The notes: generated from the sequence alone by a model not told the origin. Positions 1,061 through 32,944 are shown, numbered from the stretch's first letter. The stretch: 64,000 nt of DNA from an uncultured bacterium (GCA_963826535.1 CAWGXL010000010.1:234814-298813), one strand, 5' to 3'. Numbers and translations are program-made.

Positions 1061-1082
1061 ATTGCATATGCTATACTATTAC

Positions 1083-1379: not shown

Positions 1380-1720
1380 TCCGAGACCCCTTAATCTATC
1401 TGCATGACATACTCGAGAGTATTGAAAATATTGAGGAGGACACGCAGGGAATTTCGGAAGAAGAATTTCTCAAAAAGAGAATTATACAACAAGCAGTTAT
1501 AAGGAACTTAGAGATTATAGGCGAAGCCTCAAAGCAGTTATCAAGAGATTTTAAAAGCGCGAATCCCTCCATACCTTGGAATAAAATAACAGCAATGAGG
1601 AATAAAATCATTCATGAATACTTTGGACTGAAATTAAATGTAATTTGGCAGACAATAAATGAAGACTTACCACCTCTTAAAAAACAGATAAGAAAAATGC
1701 TGGACAATTCCTCGCAGTGA
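1376..1720 (+). CDS. hepT: HepT-type HEPN toxin (DUF86, nucleotidyltransferase substrate-binding family)
   Basis: The C-terminal HEPN Rx4HxY motif is present as RNKIIHEY. Size about 114 aa. Translationally coupled to mntA. Confidence 0.75.
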   Translation: MIRDPLIYLHDILESIENIEEDTQGISEEEFLKKRIIQQAVIRNLEIIGEASKQLSRDFKSANPSIPWNKITAMRNKIIHEYFGLKLNVIWQTINEDLPPLKKQIRKMLDNSSQ

Positions 1721-17453: not shown

Positions 17454-18779
17454 ATGGAAAAACTAATTGTAACAGGAGGAAATAAGCTCAAAGGAACGGT
17501 CAAAGTTTCCGGTGCGAAAAACGTCGCCCTGAAAACCCTCATCGCCGCTTGTCTTACAGACGAAGAAATTACAATTAAAAATGTTCCTCTTATATCGGAT
17601 TTCTTCACTATGATAGAGATAATAAAAGGATTAGGTGGAAATGTCAGGCTGACAGATCACACTGCGCGTATCCAAATTAAAAAAATCAAAAACCACAAGC
17701 TTTCTCTCGATATTGCGGCCCGTATTCGTACCTCATTCATGTTTATTGTCCCTTTATTACTTCGCTCCCATCATGCAGTCATTCCCAATCCTGGCGGCTG
17801 TAGGCTTGGAGCTAGACCGGTAGATAGATTAGTTGATGGTTTGAAAAAGATGGGTGCAAATATTACCTACAACCACGAGGATGGATTTTTTTATACCAAA
17901 GCAACAAAACTACATGGATCAGATTATACATTTAAGAAAAACACTCATATGGGCACAGAAACACTTCTTTTAGCAGCTGTGTTAGCCGAAGGTAAAACAA
18001 TTTTGAAAAACGCTGCAGAAGAACCTGAAATAGATGAGCTGATCGAACTTCTCAATAACATGGGAGCAGATATAAAACGAAACGGCAAAAGAATAATTGA
18101 AATAAATGGTGTGAAGAAATTACACAGCGCGGTTTATACTATCGGACCGGACCGAAATGAAATTGTTACATTTGCTTGTGCCGCTCTGATTACGCGCGGA
18201 GATATCTTTATAAAAGGAGCAAAAAAGGAGTATATCTCAGAATTTTTGGATAAATTGAAAATTGCCGGAGGTGGTATAGATGAAAAAAGAGATGGATTGC
18301 GTTTTTATTACAAAGGCCCATTAAATGCAGTTGATATTGAGACTAAGCCATATCCCGGATTTATGACTGATTGGCAGGCGCCTTGGGGTGTTCTTATGAC
18401 ACAAGCAAAAGGCGAGAGTATAATTCATGAAACTGTCTTTGAAAATAAACTAGACTATATCAAAGAACTCCAAAAAATGGGAGGAGTGGCAAAGCTTTTT
18501 AACCCCAAAATCGCGCGTCCCGAAGATGTCTACAACTTCAACCTATCGGATGACAAGTCCAAATATTTCCATGCTGTGAAAATCAAAGGTCTGACCACAC
18601 TGCATAACGCGATTATAACTATGTGGGATATTAGGGCCGGCGCCGCTGTTTTACTCGCCGCCCTCAACGCGAAAGGCACATCAAACATATATGATATAGA
18701 AAAATTAGACAGAGGTTATGAAAATTTCGAAAAAAGAATGATACAATTAGGAGCAAAGATAAAGAGAATTACAAAATGA
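17454..18779 (+). CDS. murA: UDP-N-acetylglucosamine 1-carboxyvinyltransferase MurA
   Basis: MEKLIVTGGNKLKGTVKVSGAKNVALKTLIAACL... is the canonical MurA N-terminus. 441 aa. Confidence 0.9.
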   Translation: MEKLIVTGGNKLKGTVKVSGAKNVALKTLIAACLTDEEITIKNVPLISDFFTMIEIIKGLGGNVRLTDHTARIQIKKIKNHKLSLDIAARIRTSFMFIVPLLLRSHHAVIPNPGGCRLGARPVDRLVDGLKKMGANITYNHEDGFFYTKATKLHGSDYTFKKNTHMGTETLLLAAVLAEGKTILKNAAEEPEIDELIELLNNMGADIKRNGKRIIEINGVKKLHSAVYTIGPDRNEIVTFACAALITRGDIFIKGAKKEYISEFLDKLKIAGGGIDEKRDGLRFYYKGPLNAVDIETKPYPGFMTDWQAPWGVLMTQAKGESIIHETVFENKLDYIKELQKMGGVAKLFNPKIARPEDVYNFNLSDDKSKYFHAVKIKGLTTLHNAIITMWDIRAGAAVLLAALNAKGTSNIYDIEKLDRGYENFEKRMIQLGAKIKRITK

Positions 18780-19522
18780 AAAAAAATAGAAAACTAGGCG
18801 CCATCATTCTCGCTGCCGGCCGCGGAAAGAGAATGGAACAAAAACGCGCAAATAAAGTCACACTTCTACTTCGTGACAAGCCACTTATTACTTATGCGGT
18901 AAACCTCCTCGAAAAAATGAAAATTAGTCCGGTAATTGTAGTTGTTGGACATGCAAAGGATACAGTCCAAGTTGCGCTTAAGAACGCCCGGGTTGTATTT
19001 GCCGAACAAAAACGCAGGCTAGGGACTGGTCATGCTGTGAGATCCGCGATAACAAAGATTCCTTCAGAAATAACTGATATAATTATTCTATATGGGGACG
19101 ACTCATTTGTTTACAATGAAGAGATTCTAAATAAAATTATTAATATTCATATTATGAACGACCAAATGCTTACTTTTCTGACAATTAAAGTTAATAATCC
19201 GGCAGGCTTAGGCAGAATAATAAGAAATGATAAAAGAGAAGTAATAGATATAATTGAAGATAAGGACGCCACAGTTGTGCAAAAGAAAATAAAAGAAATA
19301 AATCCCAACTGTTATATATTCCAAACTGAATTCCTTAAAAAATATCTCCCTAAAATTACCAAAAGTCCTGTCACAGGTGAATACTACTTACCCGCCCTTA
19401 TTAAATTAGCCCGTGATTACAAAGAAAAACTTGAAGTTGTCGAAGCCGGTTTTATTCCTTGGCAAGGTGTTAATACCCAAGAAGATCTCATTGAAGCTAA
19501 AAAATTATTTAAATATGAATGA
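18776..19522 (+). CDS. Sugar-phosphate nucleotidyltransferase (GlmU N-terminal uridylyltransferase-like)
   Basis: LGAIILAAGRGKRM is the nucleotidyltransferase G-loop. 248 aa. 4-bp overlap with murA. Confidence 0.65.
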   Translation: MKKNRKLGAIILAAGRGKRMEQKRANKVTLLLRDKPLITYAVNLLEKMKISPVIVVVGHAKDTVQVALKNARVVFAEQKRRLGTGHAVRSAITKIPSEITDIIILYGDDSFVYNEEILNKIINIHIMNDQMLTFLTIKVNNPAGLGRIIRNDKREVIDIIEDKDATVVQKKIKEINPNCYIFQTEFLKKYLPKITKSPVTGEYYLPALIKLARDYKEKLEVVEAGFIPWQGVNTQEDLIEAKKLFKYE

Positions 19523-20153
19523 TAAAAACTTTCACAATTCAAATTTTTTTGACTTAACTAAATTTGCATATAAAGATATCCTTGATGGGCCTCCTTGGAA
19601 TTCAATTTCCCTAATGAACCCATTTATTCTCCAACAATTTTCCAGTGGTACAATTGCTCCAAATTTTAAGGATAAACCATATGTTTTTATTGGAGAAGGT
19701 ACCACAATACATCCATCTGTAGAAATTGCAGGCCCTGCAATTATTGGTCGAAATTGTGAGTTGAGACATGGAGCATTTTTACGCGAAGGATGTATCATTG
19801 GCGATAATGTAATCATTGGTCACGCGGTTGAAGTAAAGCACTCAATAATTTTTAACCACAGCACAATTACCCATCTTAGTTATGTTGGTGACAGTATGAT
19901 CGGTAATAATGTAAATATATCGGGTGGTGTTATCATTGCCAATTTCAGATTAGACAAGAAAAATATTTTCATAAAAACTCCAAAAGAAGAAATTGATACA
20001 GGTATGCAAAAATTTGGCGCAACTATAGGTGACAATTCTGTAATCGGTGTAAACTCGGTTTTAAATCCTGGCACTCTACTAGGTAAAAACACAATCGTTT
20101 TCCCTTTAAAATCCATTTCAGGAGTACATGAAGACAATGCAGTCCTTAAATAA
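19515..20153 (+). CDS. Left-handed beta-helix (hexapeptide-repeat) acyltransferase, GlmU C-terminal acetyltransferase-like
   Basis: Tandem hexapeptide repeats (IGDNVIIGHAVEVKHSIIFNHSTITHLSYVGDSMIGNNVNISGGVII). ATG 19515 overlaps the stop of the upstream gene (ATGAATGA). Confidence 0.6.
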   Translation: MNDKNFHNSNFFDLTKFAYKDILDGPPWNSISLMNPFILQQFSSGTIAPNFKDKPYVFIGEGTTIHPSVEIAGPAIIGRNCELRHGAFLREGCIIGDNVIIGHAVEVKHSIIFNHSTITHLSYVGDSMIGNNVNISGGVIIANFRLDKKNIFIKTPKEEIDTGMQKFGATIGDNSVIGVNSVLNPGTLLGKNTIVFPLKSISGVHEDNAVLK

Positions 20154-21542: not shown

Positions 21543-21998
21543 ATGACTAGCTGGCAACAAATAGCTGTGATAATATATGGGATACTAAATTTATGGGTAT
21601 TTGCAAAAAGTTTTTATGAGATAAAGAACAGGAAAAATACTTTCGGATTAGCCGGGCATTTTGGTTTTTTGGGAATTTTTGTTAGAGGAGACGCAGTTAT
21701 ACTCGGTTCATTTTGGGTTATAGTTAGTTGTACAATTTTGCTTCTACAGGATTGGTATTTATTTTTATTGACTCTCTCGCTTTTTTGGGTAGTAAGAAGC
21801 GCGGGTGAAGTTATCTACTGGCTCAACGAACAATTTGCAGCCAAGTTTAGAAATCCACCCCAAACACTTAAATTTTATAAATTCTTTAATGGCGAATCTG
21901 TTTGGTTTATCTATCAACTATTTTGGCAATGCGTTTTAGTTGTATCCTTAATCGCCTCAATCTATCTTGCGGCATTATGGTTATATAGTAGATTTTGA
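21543..21998 (+). CDS. Hypothetical membrane protein (4 TM)
   Basis: Hydrophobic 151-aa ORF. Confidence 0.4.
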   Translation: MTSWQQIAVIIYGILNLWVFAKSFYEIKNRKNTFGLAGHFGFLGIFVRGDAVILGSFWVIVSCTILLLQDWYLFLLTLSLFWVVRSAGEVIYWLNEQFAAKFRNPPQTLKFYKFFNGESVWFIYQLFWQCVLVVSLIASIYLAALWLYSRF

Positions 21999-22101: not shown

Positions 22102-22320
22102 ATGGGTGATTTAAGCGATATCGGACAAAAAATAAAAGGTAAAGTTCAGGTAATCAAAGGTGATATAAATCAAAAAAGAGGGAAAGGAATTAAAGGTGGT
22201 ATGCAAAAAATTAAAGGAAAGTTTAATCAAACTGTGGCTGATACAAAAATGAAAGCCAAAAAAGCAGGAGCCAAAGGAGATGCAGATTGGGATAGAGAAG
22301 AAGATTGGGATAATAACTAA
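22102..22320 (+). CDS. CsbD-like small stress protein
   Basis: KIKGKVQVIKGDINQ...KIKGKFNQTV matches the CsbD repeat pattern. Preceded by GGAGGTGA RBS at about 22088. Confidence 0.5.
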   Translation: MGDLSDIGQKIKGKVQVIKGDINQKRGKGIKGGMQKIKGKFNQTVADTKMKAKKAGAKGDADWDREEDWDNN

Positions 22321-23123
22321 AGTTGCGCTTTTATAATAATATTATTTGGTTCCCATCTATTTTTAAATATTTTAGATAAAAATTTTTTAATAAAGTAAAA
22401 ATTTTTAAAAGCATAAAGTGTGTTTGAGTTTAATATTTTAAATCCTACTAACTCTAATTCAGCTTTGATTAATTTGTCAGTGTAATCCCTCACGTGTGCG
22501 TTTGGATTAGTTGTCATTTTTTCCAATTCTTCGTTCATGGGAACAGAAACTATTAAAAAGCCCTTTTTTTTTAACATTTTTTTAACATTACCAAGCAACT
22601 TAAATAGTTTACTGGGCGGTACATGCTCTAAAACTTCGAGCAAAAAAATGCAATCGAAAAAATTATAATGATAATTCAAACTATAAATTGATTGTTTTTC
22701 AAAATTACCTTTAAATTTACTTCTTAATCTATTAATTGAGATATCCGAGAAATCATTGGCATATATAGCAATATCTCGCCTTTTAATTAAATATTCCTCA
22801 AGAAATCCAGCTCCGGCTCCGATATCTAATACTTTTTTACAAGAACTAGTTAAAAATTTAAAGGCAATCTTTATTCTTTCTTTTGTCATTCCATCCTGAT
22901 CTTTAATATTGCCGATATCTTCAAAATTTTCATCCCACATATCAGATGTATTATTATCCTTTATCTCGGTAAATGACCTTTCGTATAATCGTCGCAACGT
23001 ATTAATCTCTTTACTTTCTGCAAGCATTTGTCTGCACCTCTCAATATTAAACGGATTCACGCAGCACTTTTTACAAATAGGATAATTCTTATCTATTTTA
23101 CAAATCAGACAATTACTCCTCAT
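22317..23123 (-). CDS. Class I SAM-dependent methyltransferase with N-terminal Cys-rich zinc-ribbon
   Basis: VLDIGAGAGFLEEYL (motif I) and an N-terminal CxxC...CxxCC. Confidence 0.65.
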   Translation of the reverse strand: MRSNCLICKIDKNYPICKKCCVNPFNIERCRQMLAESKEINTLRRLYERSFTEIKDNNTSDMWDENFEDIGNIKDQDGMTKERIKIAFKFLTSSCKKVLDIGAGAGFLEEYLIKRRDIAIYANDFSDISINRLRSKFKGNFEKQSIYSLNYHYNFFDCIFLLEVLEHVPPSKLFKLLGNVKKMLKKKGFLIVSVPMNEELEKMTTNPNAHVRDYTDKLIKAELELVGFKILNSNTLYAFKNFYFIKKFLSKIFKNRWEPNNIIIKAQL

Positions 23124-23251
23124 ACTTGCAATATATCATCAATTTGAACCACTGACAATAATTCACCCCCTTAATAAATTAATTTATAATTCTCCACTAC
23201 AAATTTATTTCCGGTTTGTATATTTATATCAGAGTATTAATAAGGTAAAAT

Positions 23252-25465
23252 ATGATTATGATATCTATTATTATCGTTAATTATCACGTTAAAAAAGAGC
23301 TATTTGAATGTGTAAAATCAATTATTTCTACTAATCCCAAAACTCCTTATGAAATAATTGTAGTTGACAATGACGAAGAGAAAACCATTCTGAATGATCT
23401 GCATAAAAAGTTTCCAAAAATCAAATACATACCAAATAAAAATAAAGGGTTCGGTCAGGGCAATAATGTTGGCGCGAAGCAGGCGAAAGGGGAGTACCTC
23501 TTCTTTCTAAATCCTGACACTAAATTTCTAAATAATTGCCTGGATATTTTGATAGCTTATCTTAAAAAAAATAAGGTTGCTGCAATCTCAGCACCTCTTC
23601 TTTTTGATAATAAAAATAAACCTTACCCTTTACAGGGAATTTTGAATCTAACACCGTTACGCGCAATATTTGCACTTTCATTTATAAATAAAGTATTTCC
23701 CAATAATAAAATATACCAGGACTATTATTTATTTGACTGGAATAAAAAAAGCATAAAAGAAGTAGATGCTGTACCAGGTACAGCTTTTATTATAAAAAAA
23801 GAAGTTTTTGAAAAAGCGGATGGATTTGACGAAAATTTTTTCCTCTATTTTGAAGAGTTTGATCTTTGTAAAAGAGTCAAAGAACTGGGTTGGAAAATCT
23901 TTATTCTTCCTACAGCAAAAGTATTTCATGTCTGGGGTAGCAGTACAAAAAAGCATGACACAAAAAAAATATTTTTAGAAAGTAGATATTATTACTTTAA
24001 AAAGCACTTTGGGACAATTACTGCTATTATCACGGAAGCAATATTGAGAATTAATAAATATAGTTTGCTACTTTCCGGAATTATAGTGCTGGGATTATTT
24101 CTTCGCACTCACAATCTGACAGATACTATGACTTTTATCGGTGACCAGGCATGGTTTTATATATCCGCACGGGATCTGCTACTTACAGGAAATATTCCTC
24201 TAGTTGGAATCCCTTCAAGTCATCCCTGGCTCCATCAGGGAGCGTTATGGACATACGCATTAGCCTTTGGACTTAAGGTCTTTTCTTTCAGCCCCCCCTC
24301 AGGAGCTTATCTTTCAGTATTAATTGATTTGATAGCAATTTTCTTAATATACAAAGTTGGGTCATCAATGTTTACGCAAAAACTTGGAGTAATCGCAGCT
24401 GCATTATATGCCACCTCACCGCTAGTGGTAATAAGTGCCCGAATGCCCTATCACACAAGCCCAATTCCATTGATGACAATTATTTTTATTTATTTCTTAT
24501 ATATTTGGGTATCCGGGAACAAGAAAGCTTTTCCTTTGATAATTGCGTCTTTAGCCATTCTTTACAATCTTGAAATAGCGACTTTTATATTGGCAATCGT
24601 ATTTTTTCTAATTCTTGCATATGGAGCGTTAAAAAAAACTTCTTGGTTTAGAAAAATTATTAGCCTAAAAATTATAATTGCCTCCTTGTTCGCTTTTATT
24701 ATTCCAATGATACCTATGTTTATACATGATATCAATCATGAGTTTTCTCAAACAATTAAATTTATTGCCTGGCTAGGTTACAAAGTTCTTTTAGTCTTTG
24801 GATACCCACCGCTTCATCCGGAAATTCAATCACCCGGCATTAACGAAATACTAGTTTTTTTAGCTATCCATTTTCAAAGACTGATTTACGCTCCAAGTTC
24901 TTTAGTTGCCTTCATATTAGGCGTATTTTCCATAGGATTTTTTTATAAATCGATAATACCTAAGATAAAATTTAATAAAAACAATATAAGCATTATCGTG
25001 CTAGCTCTTATATTTTCAGTTAGTTTGGTTGGATTCATAATTGTAGGGGTTCCCTCGAGTGCATATCTTCCCATCTTCTTCGCGCCGGTAATATTATTAA
25101 CAGCCTTGTTTTTTGAAAGGTTAATGAATAATAAAAAGCTAGGTTATAAACTTACTTTATTATTATTAAGTTTAATTGTATTTGGAAACAGTTATTATCT
25201 AATTAGTCATAATTATTCTTTTGATATGTATTTAGGACAAACGCTTAAAGTTAAGATAGATATTGCAAAGTCAATAATTAGACAATCCACTGGAAGAGAG
25301 TATAATTTAATAGGTACAGGGCCATCAAGTCAATTTAAAAGCTTTACTATGAATTACGAATATTTAACCTGGTGGCTTGGACACGGCCCCTCAGATGAGC
25401 AACAAAAATTACAGTTTATTATTAACGATGAGGATGGTACAGTTAACGTTAATAAAATAGAATAA
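23252..25465 (+). CDS. Fusion protein: N-terminal GT2 glycosyltransferase plus C-terminal polytopic GT-C-like membrane domain (ArnT/PMT-like)
   Basis: N-terminus ISIIIVNYHVKKELFECVKSI...VVDNDEEKT (GT2, DxD region). About 480 aa of multi-TM C-terminal domain follows. Confidence 0.6.
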   Translation: MIMISIIIVNYHVKKELFECVKSIISTNPKTPYEIIVVDNDEEKTILNDLHKKFPKIKYIPNKNKGFGQGNNVGAKQAKGEYLFFLNPDTKFLNNCLDILIAYLKKNKVAAISAPLLFDNKNKPYPLQGILNLTPLRAIFALSFINKVFPNNKIYQDYYLFDWNKKSIKEVDAVPGTAFIIKKEVFEKADGFDENFFLYFEEFDLCKRVKELGWKIFILPTAKVFHVWGSSTKKHDTKKIFLESRYYYFKKHFGTITAIITEAILRINKYSLLLSGIIVLGLFLRTHNLTDTMTFIGDQAWFYISARDLLLTGNIPLVGIPSSHPWLHQGALWTYALAFGLKVFSFSPPSGAYLSVLIDLIAIFLIYKVGSSMFTQKLGVIAAALYATSPLVVISARMPYHTSPIPLMTIIFIYFLYIWVSGNKKAFPLIIASLAILYNLEIATFILAIVFFLILAYGALKKTSWFRKIISLKIIIASLFAFIIPMIPMFIHDINHEFSQTIKFIAWLGYKVLLVFGYPPLHPEIQSPGINEILVFLAIHFQRLIYAPSSLVAFILGVFSIGFFYKSIIPKIKFNKNNISIIVLALIFSVSLVGFIIVGVPSSAYLPIFFAPVILLTALFFERLMNNKKLGYKLTLLLLSLIVFGNSYYLISHNYSFDMYLGQTLKVKIDIAKSIIRQSTGREYNLIGTGPSSQFKSFTMNYEYLTWWLGHGPSDEQQKLQFIINDEDGTVNVNKIE

Positions 25466-25478
25466 AAGATATAATAAT

Positions 25479-26225
25479 ATGATATCAGCAATTATTCTCA
25501 CAAAAAATGAAGAAAAAAATATTAAACAGTGTCTAGAGTCTCTTTCTTGGTGCGATGAGAGAATTGTTATAGACGACCAATCAAAAGATCGAACCGGTGA
25601 AATAGCTCAAAAATTAGGCGCGAAAGTTTATGTGCGTCTCTTATCAAATTTTTCTGATCAGAGAAATTATGGTAAAGATAAAGCTAAAGGAGACTGGATT
25701 CTTTTTATCGATGCTGACGAATATATTTCCTCTGCATTATGGTATGAAATAATGCAAAAGATCAATGAACCAATAGATAATCCAGCAGGATTTTATTTTA
25801 AACGTATTGATGTTATGTGGGGGAAGCAGTTAAAATATGGTGAATCGGGGACAATAAAACTTTTAAGACTTGCCAAAAAAAACAGCGGACAATGGGTTGG
25901 CGCTGTACATGAAAGATGGGAAATTTCCGGAAAAACAGAAACCCTTAATAATCCTTTACAACACTATCCTCACCAGACAATTGAGGAGTTTCTAAAAGAA
26001 ATTAATCACTACACGGATCTCCGCGCAAAAGAGTTATATAAACTGAATGTAAAAACAAATTGGTCCATGATTTTACTCTATCCAAAAGCAAAATTTTTTC
26101 AAAATTATATCCTCAGACTTGGAATTTTGGATGGCCTGCCGGGACTGGTTTCATCCCTCATGATGTCCTTCCATTCATTTTTAGTTAGAGGAAAGTTGTG
26201 GCTATTATGGCAAAAAGCAAAATAA
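25479..26225 (+). CDS. GT2 family glycosyltransferase
   Basis: ISAIILTKNEEKNIKQCLESL...IVIDDQSKDRT and DADE. Confidence 0.7.
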   Translation: MISAIILTKNEEKNIKQCLESLSWCDERIVIDDQSKDRTGEIAQKLGAKVYVRLLSNFSDQRNYGKDKAKGDWILFIDADEYISSALWYEIMQKINEPIDNPAGFYFKRIDVMWGKQLKYGESGTIKLLRLAKKNSGQWVGAVHERWEISGKTETLNNPLQHYPHQTIEEFLKEINHYTDLRAKELYKLNVKTNWSMILLYPKAKFFQNYILRLGILDGLPGLVSSLMMSFHSFLVRGKLWLLWQKAK

Positions 26226-26328
26226 ATAATCTTTATTATATAGCGTTCACTATTTGGAGTATATTAATTATGTTTCTTTATTTGGTACATCTATTTTCAC
26301 GAGCAAAATAATTCTTTGAGGTCCGCAA

Positions 26329-28074
26329 ATGAAATTAAGAATAAAAATATTATTAGGTATAATTGCCTTTTTTATTTTCGTTTCTTTATCAATATATATT
26401 ACGTTTCCACTCATTTTTCATCTAGGAGATTTTGCAGTTGGTCATGGAGATGAATTAGTTATTGCTTGGATACAAAGTTGGGTAATTCATGCCCTGTCAT
26501 CTGGCAATATTTTTTCTCTTTTCAATGCAAATATATTTTATCCATACCATAATTCACTAGCCTTTTCCGATATTTTTTTAACCTCAAGTATACTTTCTAT
26601 TATACCTTTGTATATTATTAAAGAGCCAATTAGCGTGGTGAATTTTACTTTTATTTCTTCACTTATACTATTGGGTTTCTCTATATTTTTATTATCATAC
26701 TATTTAACCAAGGATTTTGTTGTATCTATACTTTCCGGTAATCTTGTATTATTTACTCCGGCTGTTCTGGATAAAGCAACTCATTTACAAATACTGGCTA
26801 TTCAGTGGGTTCCACTTTCTATACTCTTTTTCCTAATTTTTATTAAGCAAGGAAAATCTAAATACTTTGCATTAGGCTTAATTTTTTTTCTGCTTCAAAT
26901 TTATAATAGTTTTCTGCCTGGTTATTTTATAGTTATTTCATATGTAATTATTTCTATTTTTAACATTTTTTATGACAAGAAAAAAAGTTTAAAACTTTTA
27001 ACAAAAATGAACATCTCACTGTTATTAATTGCATTTGCATTGACTATCCCTATTATTATTCCTTATTATCAGGTATCTAAGGAATTTAGCTACACAAGAG
27101 ATATACGGGATTCAATTCATTTTGCTCTGCAACCTGAAGATCTATTTTATTCGTCCAATTATAGCCGTTTAAATACTTTTCTAAACGACTTCCCAATCAA
27201 CAAAAATTCACAAAATAATGAATTTAAACCGGGTTATCTTGGTATCGTTTTTACAATATTATCAATATTTGTTCTATATTACTTTATTAAAAATTTCAGA
27301 AAGAATAACAAAATTTTTAATTCTTTAACTACTATAAGTTTAATTGGGTTAGTTTTAAGTTTTGGGCCTGTATTACATCTGGGAAGACAAACTATTCATG
27401 AACCCTTTCCTATACCATTACCATATACGCTTTTCTACTATATTCTTCCTGGCTTTAATGGATTTCGAAATTCCGCCAGATGGGAAATGCTCTTTATTTT
27501 ATGTATAGCTGTTGTAATTGCTTTGACATTAACTATGATATTTAAAAATTACAACAAAACAAAAACAAAGATAATTTATTGCCTGCTTATAATAGGTATA
27601 ATCGCAGAATATAACTTCCCTATGAAATTGTACGCCGTCCCTCAAGTATCTGATTTCCCGCCTGTTTACAAGTGGCTCAATACCACACCGGCAGATTCTG
27701 CTGTAATTATATTGCCAATACATAACTGGAATAGTATTTTTGCAGTAGAAGAAATATGGAGAGAATATTACTCAACAGCAAATTTCAGAAAAACAGTAAA
27801 CGGATATTCCGGCTTCTCTCCTCCGCCTTGGCAGAAGTTAGTAGTAGATATTAATAATGATTTTCCTCAAGAAAATTCTATTATTAAATTAAAAAAAATA
27901 GGGGTTGATTATATTATTGTACATAAAAGTGAATTTGACTTATTACATAAAAATAACTTTAAATTAAACATGCATCCTGGACAGATGGGAAATGAAATTA
28001 TTACCTCATTAGCTAAAAGTAAAAAATTACACTTAATCAAAAAAATAGGTAACGATTATATATATGAATTATAA
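26329..28074 (+). CDS. Large polytopic membrane protein, putative GT-C-type glycosyltransferase
   Basis: 581 aa, more than 10 predicted TM helices with a large C-terminal soluble domain. Confidence 0.4.
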   Translation: MKLRIKILLGIIAFFIFVSLSIYITFPLIFHLGDFAVGHGDELVIAWIQSWVIHALSSGNIFSLFNANIFYPYHNSLAFSDIFLTSSILSIIPLYIIKEPISVVNFTFISSLILLGFSIFLLSYYLTKDFVVSILSGNLVLFTPAVLDKATHLQILAIQWVPLSILFFLIFIKQGKSKYFALGLIFFLLQIYNSFLPGYFIVISYVIISIFNIFYDKKKSLKLLTKMNISLLLIAFALTIPIIIPYYQVSKEFSYTRDIRDSIHFALQPEDLFYSSNYSRLNTFLNDFPINKNSQNNEFKPGYLGIVFTILSIFVLYYFIKNFRKNNKIFNSLTTISLIGLVLSFGPVLHLGRQTIHEPFPIPLPYTLFYYILPGFNGFRNSARWEMLFILCIAVVIALTLTMIFKNYNKTKTKIIYCLLIIGIIAEYNFPMKLYAVPQVSDFPPVYKWLNTTPADSAVIILPIHNWNSIFAVEEIWREYYSTANFRKTVNGYSGFSPPPWQKLVVDINNDFPQENSIIKLKKIGVDYIIVHKSEFDLLHKNNFKLNMHPGQMGNEIITSLAKSKKLHLIKKIGNDYIYEL

Positions 28075-29253
28075 TTTTATTACTTTTTCGTATTTATTAA
28101 ATATATATATTACTAAAAGTCCAAGTGGGAAGTAAATTAAAGTTAATTTAGGATGGTAAGCCATAGTGACTACATTAATCATGCTACCAATAGCTAGAAA
28201 ACCTAGTAAGTACCCTTTTTTATAATGTGATGCAAGTAAAAAAGCGCAAAGAATCAAAGGTATGAAAGCCTGATAAGAATATCTCAAACTCGACACCATA
28301 ACCCACGGCTCCGCTGAAGTTGGAAAAGTAAAGTAGAGAAATAAATTAACAAAACCGAGAATATAAAGGCGATTTATACCAAAAATATTAATTTGTTTTT
28401 TATAAAATTTTATATATAGAAAAAAGCCGAATGTTAGAAATATAATTAATATCCAAATATTATATTCACCAAATACCGCATCAAACATTTGAAATGGTTG
28501 TTTTAAAGTTTCGTCTAATACATTAACTTGATAGTAGTTAACTCCCTTGAATCCAAGTACTGGCAAAGGATAAAATGGATTTTGAAGATATATATAGTTT
28601 CTTACATACCAAAAAAGCCCGAATATGGAAAAAGGGATAAAAAAAGCTATTAAATTCTTTAAATTAAGATAACGGATTATACTTCTAAAGTAGACAATTA
28701 GAAGTAATAAAAAGAATATACAACCGGTATATTTTGTACCAATCAGCATGCCAAGTACAAATCCAAGTTTAACAAAATATTTAATTTCTTTTTTAGGATG
28801 TTCAAGTAGTATAACGCCGAGAAGAAAGAATATACAAAGCCAAACATCTATACTTACCGCATTATACCACCGGACAAATACATTAAGAGTACAAATCGTA
28901 GTTGCAAAAAGTAATGACCAATAATAACGCATACGAAATATTAAACCCAATTTAAAGCACACAAAAAATAAAACAATAACAGCCAGGATATTTGAAAGGG
29001 TTAAGGGAATACCCAGAATAATTAATAGGGAATTTATAGCCTCCGATGATCCGGGAAAATATTGTCCTACAACTTTATAATCGGATGGATGTAGAAAGCT
29101 ACCATCTAAAATAGATTTAGAAATTGGAATATGATAATCCCAACTGTCACCCGGCGCTGGAACGGGGTTAATCAACCCTATATATGCATAATGAACGACA
29201 TAATATAAGAAAATAATAATACCTACATGAGATAATGTCTTTATTATTTGCAT
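28069..29253 (-). CDS. Polytopic membrane protein, putative GT-C glycosyltransferase (GT39/83-like)
   Basis: 394 aa, multi-TM, aromatic-rich. Confidence 0.4.
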   Translation of the reverse strand: MQIIKTLSHVGIIIFLYYVVHYAYIGLINPVPAPGDSWDYHIPISKSILDGSFLHPSDYKVVGQYFPGSSEAINSLLIILGIPLTLSNILAVIVLFFVCFKLGLIFRMRYYWSLLFATTICTLNVFVRWYNAVSIDVWLCIFFLLGVILLEHPKKEIKYFVKLGFVLGMLIGTKYTGCIFFLLLLIVYFRSIIRYLNLKNLIAFFIPFSIFGLFWYVRNYIYLQNPFYPLPVLGFKGVNYYQVNVLDETLKQPFQMFDAVFGEYNIWILIIFLTFGFFLYIKFYKKQINIFGINRLYILGFVNLFLYFTFPTSAEPWVMVSSLRYSYQAFIPLILCAFLLASHYKKGYLLGFLAIGSMINVVTMAYHPKLTLIYFPLGLLVIYIFNKYEKVIKL

Positions 29254-29307
29254 TATTTTTATTTTATCACTAAGCCAGATATTAGAGTAGAAGCTGTAGT
29301 TTTAATG

Positions 29308-30918
29308 TACAATATGAATATGTTTAAATTTGCACTTTTGTTAGGAATATTTTCTTATTTACTTTTTGCTCTTGGGTTATCGGGTTTATTATATGAACAT
29401 TTAATTATTTGGCTAACATTGAGTTATTGGGGTATAGCTACTTATTGGAGGAGGAAAAGTTTAATTTACTTATTTAGTAGTTTAATTAGAAATATTAAAA
29501 TTAAAGATAAACTCTTCTTTCTATTTTTTTTCCTTTTATTAAGTCAAGCGCTTGTCAATTTAATAGGAGCTTTGGGTCCGGAATTAGCTTTTGATGCATT
29601 GTGGTATCACTTAACTATTCCAAAAATATGGTTAAGTAATCATCAAATTAATTTTATACCCGGTGGATTACTTTATTACAGTGCAATGCCGAAATTAGCA
29701 GAATTATTATACACTGCAGGTCTGGCAATCGGCAATGAATTATTGCCAAAATTAATCCATTTCTCATTTGGCTTGTTGACATGTATTGCTATTTATAAAT
29801 TAGCACGAAAATTTTTCGCCCCAATTATTTCACTTCTTGCTGTAATAATTTTTTATTTTAATTTAGTTGTAGGCTGGGAATCCATAACTGCATATATTGA
29901 CTTAACACGAACATTTTTTGAAGTTATGGCTCTTTGGGCTTTTATCAATTGGTGGGAAGCGGGAAAAAAGAAGTGGATAATAATATCTGCGTTAATGGTC
30001 GGATTTGCAATTACAACAAAAATTCTCGCTCTCAGTTCGCTGCTCATATTTACAATACTTATTCTCTATAAAGGGTATACGCAAAAGCACAAGATCCATT
30101 TAGCTCATCTTTCTGGAATCCTATTATACTGGACACTATGTCTTATGGTGCCAATGCCATGGTTTATTTTTTCCTATTTTAATACGGGTAACCCAATATA
30201 TCCATTTTTCACCGAAATTTATCAAATTATTCCATCGCAATTTAGTATGACCAGTATAGTAAATGATATCGTAAATCTATTTATCTATTCTCCTGACCCT
30301 CTTTCACCTTTATATTTTATCTTCCTCCCACTAATAATTTTTATTTTTACGAAGTTTAAATCAGAAATTAAAATTATAACCATCTATTCCATATTTTCAA
30401 TTGTGTTGTGGAATTTTACTCCCAGAACTGGTGGAGGTAGATTTATACTTCCATATTTGCCAGCCATGTCAATTATCTGCGCTGCGTGTTTACATTTCTT
30501 AATTGAAAATAAGAAAAAATATGGCGCTTATTTTCCAGGAATTTTAATAATCATAATTATTGTAGTTTCTCTAATCTCTATTAGTTATCGTTTCATAGCA
30601 AATGCTAAATACCTTCCTGTTATTTTAGGAAGAGAAACAAAACATGAGTTTTTGGTAAACAATCTCAACTTTTCTTTTGGTGATTTTTATGATACTGACA
30701 AATATTTTGAAAAAAACATAAAATCAGATGATAAAATTTTGCTATTTGGATTTCATAATCTATATTATGTTGATTTTCAGTATATTGACTCATCTTGGCA
30801 AAAAGATAAAGATAAGTTTAATTATATCGCTACACAAAATATAAAGCTTCCGGAAAAGTATAAAAATTGGAAGCTCATATATGTAAATGAGAAAACAATG
30901 GTAAAATTATATAAGTGA
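29308..30918 (+). CDS. Polytopic membrane protein, putative GT-C glycosyltransferase
   Basis: Multi-TM N-terminal domain plus C-terminal soluble domain. Start chosen at internal Met 29308 (ORF track 29248). Confidence 0.4.
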   Translation, partial: YNMNMFKFALLLGIFSYLLFALGLSGLLYEHLIIWLTLSYWGIATYWRRKSLIYLFSSLIRNIKIKDKLFFLFFFLLLSQALVNLIGALGPELAFDALWYHLTIPKIWLSNHQINFIPGGLLYYSAMPKLAELLYTAGLAIGNELLPKLIHFSFGLLTCIAIYKLARKFFAPIISLLAVIIFYFNLVVGWESITAYIDLTRTFFEVMALWAFINWWEAGKKKWIIISALMVGFAITTKILALSSLLIFTILILYKGYTQKHKIHLAHLSGILLYWTLCLMVPMPWFIFSYFNTGNPIYPFFTEIYQIIPSQFSMTSIVNDIVNLFIYSPDPLSPLYFIFLPLIIFIFTKFKSEIKIITIYSIFSIVLWNFTPRTGGGRFILPYLPAMSIICAACLHFLIENKKKYGAYFPGILIIIIIVVSLISISYRFIANAKYLPVILGRETKHEFLVNNLNFSFGDFYDTDKYFEKNIKSDDKILLFGFHNLYYVDFQYIDSSWQKDKDKFNYIATQNIKLPEKYKNWKLIYVNEKTMVKLYK

Positions 30919-30919
30919 C

Positions 30920-32152
30920 TTGGGATTATTAATGAAATTCCTAAAACTACTATTCATATTAATTTTTATCCTTTTTCCCTTTGGTGAGTTATTGCGGTTT
31001 GAAATAGGAAACAATATAGCAATTAAGCCGCTCGATATAGCAGTCGGACTAGCTGCTGCAAATTGGTTAGTTTTAACACTATTCAAAAAACACAAACCCA
31101 AACTCATTCACTGGCTGTTTTTAGCCTTTCCTTTAATTGGCTTCCTTTCTTTGATTATTAGCAGTAACTGGTTAAAACCGCATGAATTCTTAACTAGCTT
31201 TCTTTATTTAGTTCGTTGGGTATCATACGCATCTATATTTTTTATAGTAATGGGTTTTGACAGGTCATTCAAAAAGATAATATGGTTTATAATGATTTTT
31301 GACGGACTGATAATTCTATTAGTAGGCTTTATACAATATTACTTTTATTCTAGTCTTAAGAGTCTTTATTATTTAGGTTGGGATGAACATTTGCACCGGA
31401 TGTTTTCAGTTTTCCTTGACCCAAATTACGCCGGCTCGTTTTTTGTTTTATACTTTTTATTTAATGGGGGACTGCTTTACAAAAGTATAATCAAGGCAAA
31501 AGAAAATAAACCGGCAAGTAAAAATTTAAATAATTATTTACTAAGCATTATTCTATTTTTAACGCTGATTGCTATATTTTTAACTTTTTCAAGATCTGCA
31601 ATTTTAATGCTCATTACTGGATCTATAACATTTTGTATACTGATTAAAAGAAAAAAATTCGTAATTTTTGTCTTAACAGCTATTTTACTATTTGGTATCA
31701 CTGCGTCTCCAAAATTTTATGATGAGAACATGAATATATTTAGGCAAAACTCAAGTGAGGCTCGTATAGACAATTACATAACCGCACTAACAATCATACG
31801 AGACCACCCATTAGTGGGCGTTGGATTTAATAGTTATCGTTATACTAAAGAATTGTATGGGCTGGATCATGATTGGGTTGACGCGCCGTCACATGCAGAT
31901 GCTGGTGTAGACAACAGTTTACTTTTTGTACTAGCCACAACCGGAATAATTGGACTAACAGCTTACTTAGGAATTTGGAGAGTGATTATTAATAAGTCAT
32001 GGCATTATTACACAAAAAAAAGATCTTCTATTGCTATTGTTGTAATAGCTTCAGGAACTGGCATTCTTATCAACTCTTTTTTTATAAATAGTCTCTTTTT
32101 TGCCCCGCTAATGCTCTGGATGTGGGCGGTCATAGGATTAATGGAAGATTAA
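30920..32152 (+). CDS. O-antigen ligase (WaaL)/Wzy-like membrane protein
   Basis: Multi-TM protein with a periplasmic loop. ...NSYRYTKELYGLDHDWVDAPSHADAGVDNSLL is typical of the O-antigen ligase family. Confidence 0.55.
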   Translation: MGLLMKFLKLLFILIFILFPFGELLRFEIGNNIAIKPLDIAVGLAAANWLVLTLFKKHKPKLIHWLFLAFPLIGFLSLIISSNWLKPHEFLTSFLYLVRWVSYASIFFIVMGFDRSFKKIIWFIMIFDGLIILLVGFIQYYFYSSLKSLYYLGWDEHLHRMFSVFLDPNYAGSFFVLYFLFNGGLLYKSIIKAKENKPASKNLNNYLLSIILFLTLIAIFLTFSRSAILMLITGSITFCILIKRKKFVIFVLTAILLFGITASPKFYDENMNIFRQNSSEARIDNYITALTIIRDHPLVGVGFNSYRYTKELYGLDHDWVDAPSHADAGVDNSLLFVLATTGIIGLTAYLGIWRVIINKSWHYYTKKRSSIAIVVIASGTGILINSFFINSLFFAPLMLWMWAVIGLMED

Positions 32153-32157
32153 CTAAG

Positions 32158-32871
32158 CTATTCAATTTTCACAACAACTTCCTTTTCAGTTTTGTTACCC
32201 GCCTCATCAGATGCTACTATCTTTATTTTATTATCACCTTTTTGTAAATTTAATAAATATGAAAAATTTCCCAGGTTATCAATAATCGCCCAATATCCAT
32301 TTACGGTTACCTGTGCGTCTCCATCTGTTTTTCCCTCGACATTAATATTGCTACTATTTGATATAATTTGTTGATCGTTTGGATATTTAACTTCCAAAGC
32401 TGGTGATTTATTTTTGTATACAATATGAATATTTTGAGAATATTGACTTTCTTTATTGTTGGATTCTATTGATTTTGCCTTTATATCATTTTCTCCATTA
32501 GCAAGAATAACATTGTTGATAACAAAATTTTTATCCTCATCTGATTTTATCTGTTTAATATACTTACCGTTTAGATAAAGTTTAACCGTTTGATTTGGTA
32601 ACGCAGAACCGGAAATTGTAATCTGGGCACTATTTGTAGCACTTGGAAGGAGATTAAGTACAGGCGGGGGTATATAGTTCGAATTATTTACAGAAATAGA
32701 ACTTTCATTACTCCCCCTAAAATTTTCAACGAATAAACTAAAATTAATAAGTAGAGGTACTCCATAAAAAAAGAACACTAAAATTAAGAAAAAAAAACCT
32801 ATAATAATAAGAATTATATTTCGCGCGTAGCGCTTATGGGACAGTTGCTCAAGTCTGGATTTTTTTACCAT
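32158..32871 (-). CDS. Membrane-anchored protein with bacterial Ig-like domains
   Basis: N-terminal TM helix, then beta-rich Ig-like repeats. Confidence 0.45.
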   Translation of the reverse strand: MVKKSRLEQLSHKRYARNIILIIIGFFFLILVFFFYGVPLLINFSLFVENFRGSNESSISVNNSNYIPPPVLNLLPSATNSAQITISGSALPNQTVKLYLNGKYIKQIKSDEDKNFVINNVILANGENDIKAKSIESNNKESQYSQNIHIVYKNKSPALEVKYPNDQQIISNSSNINVEGKTDGDAQVTVNGYWAIIDNLGNFSYLLNLQKGDNKIKIVASDEAGNKTEKEVVVKIE

Positions 32872-32872
32872 G

Positions 32873-32944
32873 AGCCTACGGTCGGATTTGAACTGACAAC
32901 CTGCGGTTTACGATACCGCTGCTCTACCGTTGAGCTACGTAGGC
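32873..32944 (-). tRNA. tRNA-Thr (anticodon CGT)
   Basis: On the minus strand: GCCTACG TA GCTC AACGGTA GAGC A GCGGT ATCGTAA ACCGC AGGTT GTCAG TTCAAAT CCGAC CGTAGGC T. This gives a cloverleaf with a 7-bp acceptor, U33, anticodon CGU and A37. Confidence 0.8.

What the first reader, a model, noticed from the sequence alone, without database searches (positions are those of the whole stretch)
22317..32871. About 10-kb surface glycosylation locus
The locus contains a zinc-ribbon SAM methyltransferase, a GT2-GT-C fusion protein (737 aa), a GT2, three large polytopic membrane proteins of 581, 394 and 537-556 aa (GT-C/ArnT/PMT-like), an O-antigen-ligase-like protein and a membrane-anchored Ig-like protein, followed by tRNA-Thr. 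There is no classic wzx/wzy/wzz or LPS core. Several stacked GT-C-type transferases suggest stepwise glycosylation of a lipid carrier or of a surface protein or S-layer, a pathway that is not well described in reduced-genome bacteria.
Basis: partly seen in the sequence, partly recalled or inferred. Interest (0 to 1): 0.6.

Follow-up and report, generated by a model that had tools for sequence, protein, structure and literature searches.

The report
Conserved multi-GT-C surface glycan locus
A 10.6-kb block in a tiny-genome Levybacteria (Patescibacteria/CPR) bacterium encodes four membrane glycosyltransferase modules of the GT-C fold, two soluble GT2 enzymes, an O-antigen-ligase-like protein and a membrane-anchored Ig-like protein; the core is kept in the same order beside the ATP synthase genes in many relatives, so it is most likely the lineage's standard machinery for building a still unknown cell-surface glycan.

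Summary
All eight ORFs and tRNA-Thr sit at the stated coordinates. Pfam confirms the methyltransferase, the GT2–GT-C (PMT_2) fusion, the GT2, the PMT_2 protein, the Wzy_C protein and the Ig-like protein.

The 581-aa and 394-aa membrane proteins match no Pfam family and no solved structure by sequence. Confident AlphaFold models (pLDDT 87 and 95) match only GT-C glycosyltransferases. Profile comparison links all four GT-C modules, and each keeps a conserved Asp in its first outer loop.

The core order is GT2–GT-C, GT2, 581-aa GT-C, PMT_2 GT-C, Wzy_C, Ig-like gene, tRNA-Thr, atp operon. It recurs in 20 of 42 related species genomes, mostly Levybacteria, so this is not an island. Relatives add a Wzx flippase, GT4, GT87, extra PMT_2 genes and sugar-modifying enzymes upstream.

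Best reading: an assembly line for a lipid-linked envelope glycan, with several glycosylation steps on the outer face and a final Wzy_C-type transfer. The acceptor (lipid or wall versus protein) is unresolved. No priming transferase, GtrB-type donor synthase or flippase lies in the window.

It is a new variant of a known kind, of moderate interest.

The parts
22317..23123 (-). SAM-dependent methyltransferase, 268 aa, with an N-terminal four-Cys motif. It is divergent from the GT operon and is an accessory, variable member of the locus.
   Evidence: Pfam Methyltransf_23/25/11, about 1e-12. It is only about 23-29% identical to the 233-aa methyltransferase that sits just upstream of the 581-aa GT-C gene in 14 related loci.
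23252..25465 (+). Bimodular glycosyltransferase, 737 aa: a cytoplasmic GT2 (GT-A) domain at about residues 1-264, fused to a polytopic GT-C (PMT_2-like) domain at about residues 265-737.
   Evidence: Pfam Glycos_transf_2 4e-20 and PMT_2 3e-8. The family conserves D39, N87-P88-D89 and E201-E202-x-D204 in the GT2 domain, and D298 and D308 in the first outer loop of the GT-C part. In L033 the two modules are adjacent separate ORFs. In seven other loci only the GT-C part occupies this slot.
25479..26225 (+). Soluble GT2 glycosyltransferase, 248 aa. It is the best conserved protein of the core.
   Evidence: Pfam Glycos_transf_2 1e-19. The best solved relative is GmaR, 9.6e-19, followed by ThuS/SunS-type and TarS enzymes. 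The D78-A-D80-E81 motif is conserved. It is present in 27 of 42 loci at 43-73% identity.
26329..28074 (+). GT-C-fold membrane glycosyltransferase, 581 aa, with about 11-13 TM helices and a C-terminal extracytoplasmic alpha/beta domain. It belongs to a family that Pfam does not capture.
   Evidence: No Pfam or PDB sequence hit. AlphaFold pLDDT 87, pTM 0.88. Foldseek: STT3 2e-8, DPY19 1e-7, AglB, AftD, PglB, AftA, ArnT. hhalign to the GT-C domain of the fusion: probability 91.5% over 320 columns. G40-D41 is invariant after TM1.
28069..29253 (-). Compact GT-C-fold membrane protein, 394 aa, with no soluble domain. It is an accessory member whose position varies in relatives.
   Evidence: No Pfam or PDB sequence hit. 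AlphaFold pLDDT 94.7. The top 18 Foldseek hits are all GT-C enzymes, including STT3 1e-3, PglB, ALG12 and ArnT (TM 0.54). hhalign to the 556-aa PMT_2 family: probability 96.3%. G35-D36 and Y40-H41 are invariant. It lies within 10 kb in only 7 of 42 loci.
29248..30918 (+). PMT_2-type GT-C glycosyltransferase. The ORF is 556 aa; the likely start is an ATG at about 29308-29320, giving about 532-536 aa.
   Evidence: Pfam PMT_2 5e-9. P111-E112 and D116-ALWYH121 are conserved in the outer loop after the third TM helix. It is present in 28 of 42 loci.
30920..32152 (+). Wzy_C (O-antigen ligase/polymerase superfamily) membrane protein, 406-410 aa.
   Evidence: Pfam Wzy_C 4e-20, 72.5 bits against a cut-off of 31.7. 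NCBIfam hits, both below cut-off: putative O-glycosylation ligase 9e-15 and repeat-unit polymerase 1e-3. In numbering (from the ATG at 30932), R271 and R278 are invariant and R221 and H321 are at least 90% conserved. It is present in 24 of 42 loci.
32158..32871 (-). Membrane-anchored surface protein, 237 aa: an N-terminal TM helix, an Asn/Ser/Pro-rich linker and two Ig-like beta-sandwich domains. It is convergent with the Wzy_C gene.
   Evidence: Pfam Glucodextran_B 3e-17 and Big_6. The roughly 237-aa family carries only Levybacteria or Patescibacteria names where a source names it. It holds the same place in 23 of 42 loci. Linker composition.
32872..32944 (-). tRNA-Thr(CGU). It abuts the start codon of the Ig-like gene and forms the conserved right-hand boundary towards the atp operon.
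   Evidence: ARAGORN and Rfam. The same tRNA lies directly upstream of the Ig-like gene in 20 of 21 related loci.

Best explanation
The block is the vertically inherited core of an envelope-glycan assembly pathway in Levybacteria, which are monoderm Patescibacteria.

Shown:
- It encodes two cytoplasmic GT-A (GT2) catalytic domains, four GT-C-fold membrane modules that each keep a conserved acidic residue in the first extracytoplasmic loop, one Wzy_C-type enzyme, one methyltransferase and one membrane-anchored Ig-like protein.
- The core gene order is conserved beside tRNA-Thr and the atp operon.

Inferred:
1. The GT2 domains use nucleotide sugars at the inner face of the membrane to build or extend a polyprenyl-phosphate-linked glycan. 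In the 737-aa protein, the fused GT-C domain tethers one GT2 to the membrane and couples an inner-face step to an outer-face step on the same intermediate.
2. The intermediate is flipped. A Wzx-type flippase sits next to the cluster in 18 relatives but is not in this window.
3. The four GT-C modules add sugars on the outer face from polyprenyl-phosphate-linked donors.
4. The Wzy_C protein polymerises the undecaprenyl-diphosphate-linked glycan or, more likely given its Arg/Arg/His pattern, ligates it to its final acceptor.
5. The methyltransferase modifies a sugar.
6. The Ig-like protein is an accessory partner or an acceptor.

My split for the final acceptor is about 45% membrane glycolipid or wall polymer (a lipoglycan or secondary wall polysaccharide), about 35% surface protein and about 20% other.
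For: Family and fold assignments.

Homology chain among the four GT-C modules: 581-aa protein to fusion GT-C domain 91.5%, fusion GT-C domain to 556-aa protein 95.6%, 556-aa protein to 394-aa protein 96.3%.

Conserved Asp or Glu just after the helix that runs from inside to outside in all four modules, and intact DxD-type motifs in both GT2 domains.

Topology is coherent. The GT2 domain precedes the first TM helix, and positively charged N-termini lie before TM1 (sequences, hydropathy).

Synteny:
- 20 of 42 species-level genomes carry GT2 / 581-aa GT-C / PMT_2 GT-C / Wzy_C / Ig-like in the same order. Of these, 16 also have the fusion or its GT-C part, and 18 have the ATP synthase epsilon gene downstream.
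- tRNA-Thr is conserved in 20 of 21 loci.
- The GT2 and GT-C modules are split but adjacent in L033, which links the two activities.

Relatives add Wzx (18 loci), GT4 (11), GT87 (11), further PMT_2 GT-Cs, and DegT, epimerase, acyltransferase, FkbM and C-methyltransferase genes. This is typical glycan-building and decorating content.

Wzy_C proteins act as glycan ligases in monoderms too. TacL ligates teichoic acid to a glycolipid (PMC5727136). WsaB and WsfB are predicted to transfer the S-layer glycan to the protein (PMC2943079). In the O-antigen ligase structure, two Arg residues bind undecaprenyl diphosphate and a His activates the acceptor (PMC10920833).
Against: - No priming phosphoglycosyltransferase, flippase or nucleotide-sugar gene lies in the locus or elsewhere in the 64-kb window.
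- Neither GT2 looks like a GtrB/DPMS-type polyprenyl-phosphate glycosyltransferase. For the fused GT2 profile, DPMS scores 1e-8 over the N-terminal half only and GtrB 6e-3, against chondroitin synthase 3e-22 and TarS 5e-13. The free GT2 scores 1e-18 to GmaR. The source of lipid-linked monosaccharide donors is therefore unidentified.
- No sugar, acceptor or activity has been shown.
- Twelve related genomes carry the 581-aa gene alone in unrelated contexts, so it can work away from the cluster.
- The Wzy_C profile could not be aligned to the solved O-antigen ligase, so the Arg/Arg/His correspondence rests on pattern only.
Confidence: 0.7

Rival explanations
1. A dedicated protein-glycosylation system. 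The PMT_2-type GT-Cs and the OST-like 581-aa enzyme glycosylate secreted or surface proteins directly (S-layer, pilins or the neighbouring Ig-like protein). The Wzy_C protein acts as an O-oligosaccharyltransferase of the PglL/WsaB kind.
For: - The 581-aa model is closest to oligosaccharyltransferases and the C-mannosyltransferase DPY19, and it has an extracytoplasmic C-terminal alpha/beta domain. The AglB C-terminal domain matches at Foldseek probability 0.97-1.00 (E 0.06-0.15).
- There are PMT_2 hits.
- The free GT2 is closest to GmaR and to SunS/ThuS-type glycosyltransferases. From my own knowledge, GmaR O-GlcNAcylates flagellin.
- Wzy_C domains occur in the O-oligosaccharyltransferases PilO and PglL and in the predicted ones WsaB and WsfB (PMC2943079).
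- A membrane-anchored Ig-like protein with an Asn/Ser/Pro-rich linker is always next to the Wzy_C gene.
Against: - There is no WWDYG motif and no STT3 or PMT (PF02366) family hit in the window proteins.
- PMT_2 is a broad family that also covers lipid- and glycan-modifying enzymes.
- TM-scores to oligosaccharyltransferases are only about 0.5.
- The accessory genes in relatives (Wzx, GT4, GT87, acyltransferase, aminotransferase) fit a polymer or lipoglycan at least as well.
- No conserved sequon was found in the Ig-like protein. Its conserved D-x-A-G-N is a structural Ig-domain motif (that reading is my own knowledge).
Confidence: 0.3
2. A conventional Wzx/Wzy-dependent O-antigen or capsule cluster.
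For: The locus has a Wzy_C protein and two GT2s. Relatives carry Wzx, GT4, aminotransferase, epimerase, acyltransferase and methyltransferase genes upstream.
Against: - The window has no Wzx, no chain-length regulator and no priming transferase.
- Four to six GT-C enzymes of the lipid-phosphate-sugar type are not part of conventional clusters.
- The core is syntenic across genomes whose proteins are only 35-73% identical, rather than hypervariable.
- No lipid A or LPS-core gene was seen in the window, and Patescibacteria are regarded as monoderm (my own knowledge).
Confidence: 0.08
3. A recently acquired genomic island next to a tRNA gene, flagged by its low G+C content.
For: G+C is 0.29-0.31 in the locus against 0.36-0.40 in the flanks. 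A tRNA gene lies at its right edge.
Against: - The same order beside the same tRNA-Thr and atp operon recurs in 20 or more species.
- The G+C dip is also present in relatives (0.32-0.35 against 0.39-0.41).
- Most of the dip lies at first codon positions, that is, in the amino-acid content of membrane proteins.
- There are no flanking repeats or integrase.
Confidence: 0.03

Closest known systems
Three-component extracytoplasmic glycosylation systems (GtrB-type GT2 + GtrA/Wzx-type flippase + GT-C enzyme; Gram-positive CsbB/GtcA/YfhO)
   Same: GT2 enzymes are encoded next to GT-C enzymes. Glycosylation is inferred to occur on the outer face from lipid-linked donors (principle in PMC11127046).
   Different: - There are four GT-C modules rather than one.
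- There is no flippase in the window.
- Neither GT2 ranks GtrB or DPMS as its nearest solved relative.
- One GT2 is fused to a GT-C instead of carrying its own one or two TM anchors.
Mycobacterial and corynebacterial PIM/LM/LAM and arabinogalactan assembly (GT4 PimA/PimB, GT87 PimE, GT-C MptA/MptB, Emb, Aft)
   Same: Several GT-C enzymes act in series on one envelope glycoconjugate. Relatives of this locus also carry GT4 and GT87 genes. AftA, AftD and PimE are among the fold matches.
   Different: - There is no sequence-level relationship to those families.
- The window itself has no GT87 or GT4.
- No Ppm1-like donor synthase was identified.
- A Wzy_C enzyme and an Ig-like protein belong to the core here.
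- The organism is a Patescibacterium.
Oligosaccharyltransferases STT3/AglB/PglB (CAZy GT66) and the C-mannosyltransferase DPY19
   Same: These are the best fold matches of the 581-aa protein: E 2e-8 to 5e-4, with a polytopic N-terminal part, a C-terminal extracytoplasmic domain and a conserved Asp in the first outer loop.
   Different: - There is no WWDYG motif.
- There is no STT3 Pfam hit.
- There is no sequence hit to any solved chain, even with a profile.
- TM-scores are only about 0.5.
Wzy_C enzymes of monoderm bacteria: TacL (teichoic acid to glycolipid ligase) and WsaB/WsfB (predicted S-layer O-oligosaccharyltransferases); O-antigen ligase WaaL (CAZy GT121)
   Same: A Wzy_C domain in a polytopic protein of about 400 aa. 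Conserved Arg, Arg and His lie in the C-terminal half, matching the catalytic logic of the ligase structure (PMC10920833; PMC5727136; PMC2943079).
   Different: The family profile could not be aligned to the solved ligase. Donor and acceptor are unknown. There is no TPR domain.
WadA-type bimodular enzymes (globular GT25 fused to a GT121 ligase)
   Same: A cytoplasmic GT-A domain is fused to a membrane GT-C-class domain. In WadA this was read as coupled action of consecutive steps (PMC10920833). Here the GT2 and GT-C modules are fused in the window and adjacent in L033.
   Different: The domain families differ: GT2 plus a PMT_2-type GT-C, instead of GT25 plus an O-antigen ligase.

Membership tests
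GT-C fold glycosyltransferases (lipid-phosphate-sugar type, GT-C_A) | Polytopic membrane protein whose fold matches solved GT-C enzymes | tested here: met
   581-aa protein: Foldseek hits to STT3, DPY19, AglB, AftD, PglB and AftA at E 2e-8 to 1e-3, probability 1.00. 394-aa protein: the top 18 hits are all GT-C enzymes, at Foldseek probability 0.99-1.00. 556-aa protein and the C-terminal part of the 737-aa protein: Pfam PMT_2 above cut-off. hhalign links all four.
GT-C fold glycosyltransferases (lipid-phosphate-sugar type, GT-C_A) | Conserved acidic residue in the first extracytoplasmic loop | tested here: met
   D41 in the 581-aa protein, D36 in the 394-aa protein, E112 and D116 in the 556-aa protein, and D298 and D308 in the fusion are invariant in the family alignments. 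The outer-face location is inferred from hydropathy and charge, not measured.
GT-C fold glycosyltransferases (lipid-phosphate-sugar type, GT-C_A) | Uses a polyprenyl-phosphate-linked or polyprenyl-diphosphate-linked sugar donor | not testable with these tools
   This needs biochemistry.
Protein O-mannosyltransferase (GT39) / ArnT (GT83) | Match to the PMT (PF02366) or ArnT-specific models | tested here: not met
   Only the broad PMT_2 model is hit. There is no PF02366 hit and no ArnT NCBIfam hit for any window protein. PF02366 is hit only by other fusion proteins in relatives.
Oligosaccharyltransferase (GT66: STT3/AglB/PglB) | WWDYG motif in the C-terminal domain and a match to the STT3 family model | tested here: not met
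   No WWDYG-like motif in the 581-aa protein. No STT3 Pfam hit. No PDB sequence or profile hit. The resemblance is at fold level only.
YfhO family (PF09586) | Match to the YfhO model | tested here: not met
   No hit for the window proteins or for 44 family members. One distant member of the extended family has a sub-threshold YfhO hit.
O-antigen ligase / Wzy_C superfamily (CAZy GT121 and related polymerases) | Wzy_C domain above the curated threshold | tested here: met
   72.5 bits against a cut-off of 31.7, E 4e-20.
O-antigen ligase / Wzy_C superfamily (CAZy GT121 and related polymerases) | Two Arg residues that bind undecaprenyl diphosphate and a His that activates the acceptor, in the long outer loop | tested here: inconclusive
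   In numbering, R271 and R278 are invariant and R221 and H321 are at least 90% conserved. The profile found no solved ligase to align with, so equivalence is unproven.
Conventional Wzx/Wzy-dependent O-antigen or capsule cluster | Priming phosphoglycosyltransferase, Wzx flippase, Wzy polymerase and chain-length regulator encoded together | tested here: not met
   The window has no Wzx, priming transferase or regulator. Relatives have Wzx in 18 loci. No priming transferase family appears among the 25 Pfam families shown of the 74 matched by the 70 accessory-gene representatives. Families matched by a single representative were mostly not listed, so a priming transferase in one locus is not excluded.
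Three-component glycosylation system | GtrB/DPMS-type polyprenyl-phosphate glycosyltransferase and a small or Wzx-type flippase beside the GT-C gene | tested here: not met
   The nearest solved relatives of the two GT2s are chondroitin synthase, TarS and ppGalNAc-T for the fused one, and GmaR and SunS-type enzymes for the free one. GtrB reaches only 6e-3. No flippase lies in the window. The unassigned 151-aa membrane ORF at 21543-21998 is untested.

The most novel reading that the evidence does not exclude
The 581-aa protein represents a large, unannotated bacterial GT-C family: 15,793 clusters at 50% identity, almost none covered by Pfam. Its OST/DPY19-like architecture may mark a new class of bacterial protein glycosyltransferase. 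Together with the Wzy_C enzyme it would glycosylate the co-conserved Ig-like protein or other surface proteins. That would give Patescibacteria a lineage-specific surface glycoprotein coat relevant to host attachment.
Probability: 0.15. Interest if true: 0.75.

Novelty: new variant of a known kind. Interest (0 to 1): 0.42.

Why it matters
Patescibacteria have genomes of about 0.5-1 Mb, and most depend on hosts that they touch through their cell surface. Their surface chemistry is almost unknown. A 2024 preprint on Saccharibacteria pili calls their glycosylation 'unexplored' (PMC11623550).

This lineage keeps a 10-kb locus with four to six GT-C genes, about 1-2% of the genome if it is 0.5-1 Mb (the gene's contig is 494 kb), in a fixed place. 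That says the product is important to the cell. The locus therefore offers:
- a defined gene set for finding the Levybacteria surface glycan;
- two GT-C families that current domain libraries miss;
- a natural GT2–GT-C fusion that could show how inner-face and outer-face steps are coupled.

It does not overturn any established view. Loci rich in glycosyltransferases are common, and the mechanism proposed here uses known principles.

Tried and rejected
- Single-sequence and profile searches of the 581-aa, 394-aa, 556-aa and Wzy_C proteins against all PDB chains found nothing usable.
- An exact look-up of the 581-aa protein's contig returned no record. The rest of the 494-kb contig could therefore not be searched for a priming transferase, a donor synthase or a flippase.
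- Pfam scans of 44 and 46 family members gave only sub-threshold DUF7657 or PTPS_related hits.
- Literature searches for Patescibacteria with GT-C, for the DUF accessions, and for CPR with mannosyltransferase or glycosylation found nothing on this locus.
- The weak NCBIfam hit of the Ig-like protein to the CPR pilus protein PamR is only a shared tandem beta-sandwich. PamR has a C-terminal anchor and belongs to a pilus operon.
- The promoter/terminator scan was uninformative in this AT-rich DNA.
- The repeat scan and Rfam found nothing apart from the tRNAs.
- The island hypothesis was rejected on synteny and on the shared G+C dip.
- The transporter hypothesis was rejected on fold-search ranking.

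Full report
**Observation.** tRNA-Thr(CGU) lies at 32872-32944 on the minus strand. Pfam gives these assignments:
- 268 aa: SAM-dependent methyltransferase.
- 737 aa: Glycos_transf_2 at residues 5-137 (4e-20) and PMT_2 at 333-481 (3e-8).
- 248 aa: Glycos_transf_2 (1e-19).
- 556 aa: PMT_2 (5e-9).
- 410 aa: Wzy_C (4e-20, well above the cut-off).
- 237 aa: Glucodextran_B/Big_6 beta-sandwich behind one N-terminal TM helix.

NCBIfam adds nothing above its cut-offs. All eight proteins have full-length homologues at 35-73% identity in other genomes, so these are real genes.

Small corrections follow from the family alignments. The 556-aa ORF probably starts at one of the ATG codons at residues 21-25, because M25 is conserved. 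The Wzy_C gene probably starts at 30932. The 'zinc ribbon' of the methyltransferase is a four-Cys pattern read from the sequence, and no model supports it.

**The two unassigned membrane proteins.** The 581-aa and 394-aa proteins hit no Pfam family even at E = 10. They hit no solved chain by sequence or by family profile. Scans of 44 and 46 family members gave only sub-threshold DUF7657 hits.

AlphaFold models built on alignments of 44 and 46 homologues are confident: pLDDT 87.1 with pTM 0.88, and pLDDT 94.7 with pTM 0.93.
- The 581-aa model matches STT3 (2e-8), DPY19 (1e-7), AglB, AftD, PglB, AftA and ArnT. The isolated C-terminal domain of AglB also matches, at Foldseek probability 0.97-1.00 (E 0.06-0.15).
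- The top 18 matches of the 394-aa model are all GT-C enzymes: STT3, PglB, ALG12, ArnT (TM 0.54), Pmt4 and ALG3/9, with PimE following at rank 23.
- Transporters appear only at probability 0.2 or less in both searches.

Local hhalign links the families in a chain: 581-aa protein to the GT-C domain of the fusion (91.5%, 320 columns), fusion GT-C domain to the 556-aa protein (95.6%), and 556-aa protein to the 394-aa protein (96.3%). None is linked to the Wzy_C family.

Each module keeps an invariant acidic residue shortly after the helix that runs from inside to outside:
- G40-D41 in the 581-aa protein.
- G35-D36 with Y40-H41 in the 394-aa protein.
- E112 and D116 in the 556-aa protein.
- D298 and D308 in the fusion.

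The claim of 'three GT-C-like membrane proteins plus a GT2–GT-C fusion' therefore stands. One refinement applies: the 581-aa protein is architecturally closer to oligosaccharyltransferases and DPY19 than to ArnT or PMT, but it lacks the WWDYG motif.

**The soluble glycosyltransferases.** Both GT2 domains keep DxD-type motifs.
- A profile of the fused GT2 ranks glycan- or peptide-acting GT-A enzymes first: chondroitin synthase 3e-22, TarS 5e-13 and GalT1, with ppGalNAc-transferases matching over the full domain. DPMS matches only the N-terminal half (1e-8), and GtrB reaches only 6e-3.
- The free 248-aa GT2 is closest to GmaR (9.6e-19), then to SunS/ThuS-type enzymes and TarS.

Neither is an obvious GtrB-type donor synthase.

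**Context and conservation.** The flanks are housekeeping genes.
- Upstream lie MurA, a GlmU-like pair, a HAD hydrolase, GreA, a zincin-like protein and an unassigned 151-aa membrane ORF.
- Downstream lies the ATP synthase operon.

A scan of one genome per GTDB species with the 581-aa family found 42 loci. Most are titled Levybacteria/Levyibacteriota or Patescibacteria. Many others are titled 'uncultured Gammaproteobacteria' despite the same gene content. A tblastn of the window proteins against these loci gave the following:
- 20 loci carry GT2, the 581-aa GT-C, the PMT_2 GT-C, Wzy_C and the Ig-like gene in the window's order.
- Of these 20, 16 also have the fusion or its GT-C part, and 18 have the ATP synthase epsilon gene downstream.
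- 10 more loci are partial, several of them cut by contig ends.
- 12 loci carry the 581-aa gene alone among unrelated housekeeping genes. Eight of these form one clade.

tRNA-Thr(CGU) sits directly upstream of the Ig-like gene in 20 of 21 loci examined.

The GT2–GT-C fusion is resolved into two adjacent ORFs in L033. In seven other loci only the GT-C part is present at that slot. The 394-aa gene and the methyltransferase are variable members.

The low G+C of the locus recurs in relatives and lies mostly at first codon positions. Together with the synteny, this excludes a recent island.

**Accessory content in relatives.** Upstream of the core, and sometimes inserted within it, relatives carry these genes:
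- a Wzx-type flippase in 18 loci;
- a 233-aa methyltransferase in 14 loci;
- a GT4 in 11 loci;
- a GT87 between the PMT_2 gene and Wzy_C in 11 loci;
- further PMT_2 proteins (L025 has six GT-C genes in a row);
- a second GT2–PMT fusion;
- DegT aminotransferases, epimerases, acyltransferases, FkbM and C-methyltransferases, and a carbamoyltransferase.

None of these has a homologue anywhere in the 64-kb window. The window therefore holds a trimmed version: the conserved core plus one methyltransferase.

**Mechanism.** What is shown is the set of catalytic modules, their conserved motifs, their topological coherence and their conserved linkage.

What is inferred rests on established knowledge of GT-C enzymes, three-component systems (PMC11127046) and Wzy_C enzymes (PMC10920833; PMC5727136; PMC2943079). 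The inferred pathway runs as follows:
1. A polyprenyl-phosphate-linked glycan is assembled at the inner face.
2. It is flipped to the outer face.
3. Up to four GT-C modules elaborate it there.
4. The Wzy_C protein ligates or polymerises it.

The fusion of a GT-A domain to a GT-C domain parallels the bimodular ligase WadA, where coupled action was proposed.

The final acceptor is unresolved.
- The GT4, GT87 and Wzx content of relatives, and the TacL precedent, favour a lipoglycan or wall polymer.
- The OST-like fold of the 581-aa protein, the GmaR-like GT2, the WsaB/PglL precedent and the ever-present Ig-like neighbour favour protein glycosylation.

**Gaps.** No priming transferase, donor synthase or flippase lies in the window, and the rest of the genome could not be read.

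**Novelty and verdict.** No paper in the searchable library describes this locus or these families. The 581-aa family is large: a profile search finds 15,793 clusters at 50% identity with E ≤ 1e-3. It extends to Anaerolineae, and almost none of it is covered by Pfam.

The principles at work are known: GT2 plus GT-C plus a Wzy_C enzyme on lipid carriers. The particular conserved architecture in a reduced-genome lineage is not described. I rate it a new variant of a known kind, with moderate interest (0.42).

Noticed in passing
window 18776-19522 and 19413-20153 (+): The two GlmU-type domains are encoded by two ORFs in different frames that overlap. One carries NTP_transferase and the other the hexapeptide left-handed beta-helix. 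A likely ATG for the second lies near 19515, overlapping the first ORF's stop. This is either a split gene or a frameshift.
   Followed up: no
window 21543-21998 (+): A 151-aa ORF with about 4-6 hydrophobic segments lies just upstream of the locus. It has no Pfam family and no homologue in the 45 related loci. It could be a small flippase-like membrane protein.
   Followed up: partly
window 22102-22320 (+): A 72-aa Lys/Gly-rich ORF (MGDLSDIGQKIKGKVQVIKGD...) looks like a CsbD-type stress protein. This reading rests on the sequence alone.
   Followed up: no
window 32871-32944 (-) and 20 of 21 related loci: The 3' end of tRNA-Thr(CGU) abuts the ATG of the Ig-like gene with no spacer. The same pair is conserved downstream of the atp operon in 20 of 21 loci. 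This suggests read-through transcription from atp through the tRNA into the Ig-like gene.
   Followed up: partly
L005, L008, L013-L015, L018, L020, L023, L024, L027, L039, L040: In 12 of 42 species the 581-aa GT-C gene stands alone among unrelated housekeeping genes (SecA, BacA, a pilus ATPase, PPDK). Eight of these genomes form one clade in a neighbour-joining tree.
   Followed up: partly
L005, L008, L009, L011, L014-L018 and others: Many public MAG records that carry this Patescibacteria locus are titled 'uncultured Gammaproteobacteria', and one is titled 'Negativicutes'. These are evidently placeholder or wrong taxonomic labels.
   Followed up: no
L025:1032-11206: Six GT-C genes lie in a row in one relative: three extra PMT_2 genes, the 581-aa type, the 556-aa type and a GT87.
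   Followed up: partly
window 54959-55786 (+) and 56566-58620 (-): The window also encodes a membrane-anchored protein with two LysM domains and a 684-aa glucose/sorbosone-dehydrogenase-like protein with N-terminal hydrophobic segments. Both are further candidate surface proteins of this organism.
   Followed up: no
window 1062-1720 (+): Two small adjacent ORFs of 105 and 114 aa read like a nucleotidyltransferase/HEPN-type toxin-antitoxin pair. This rests on the sequence only and was not tested against any family model.
   Followed up: no
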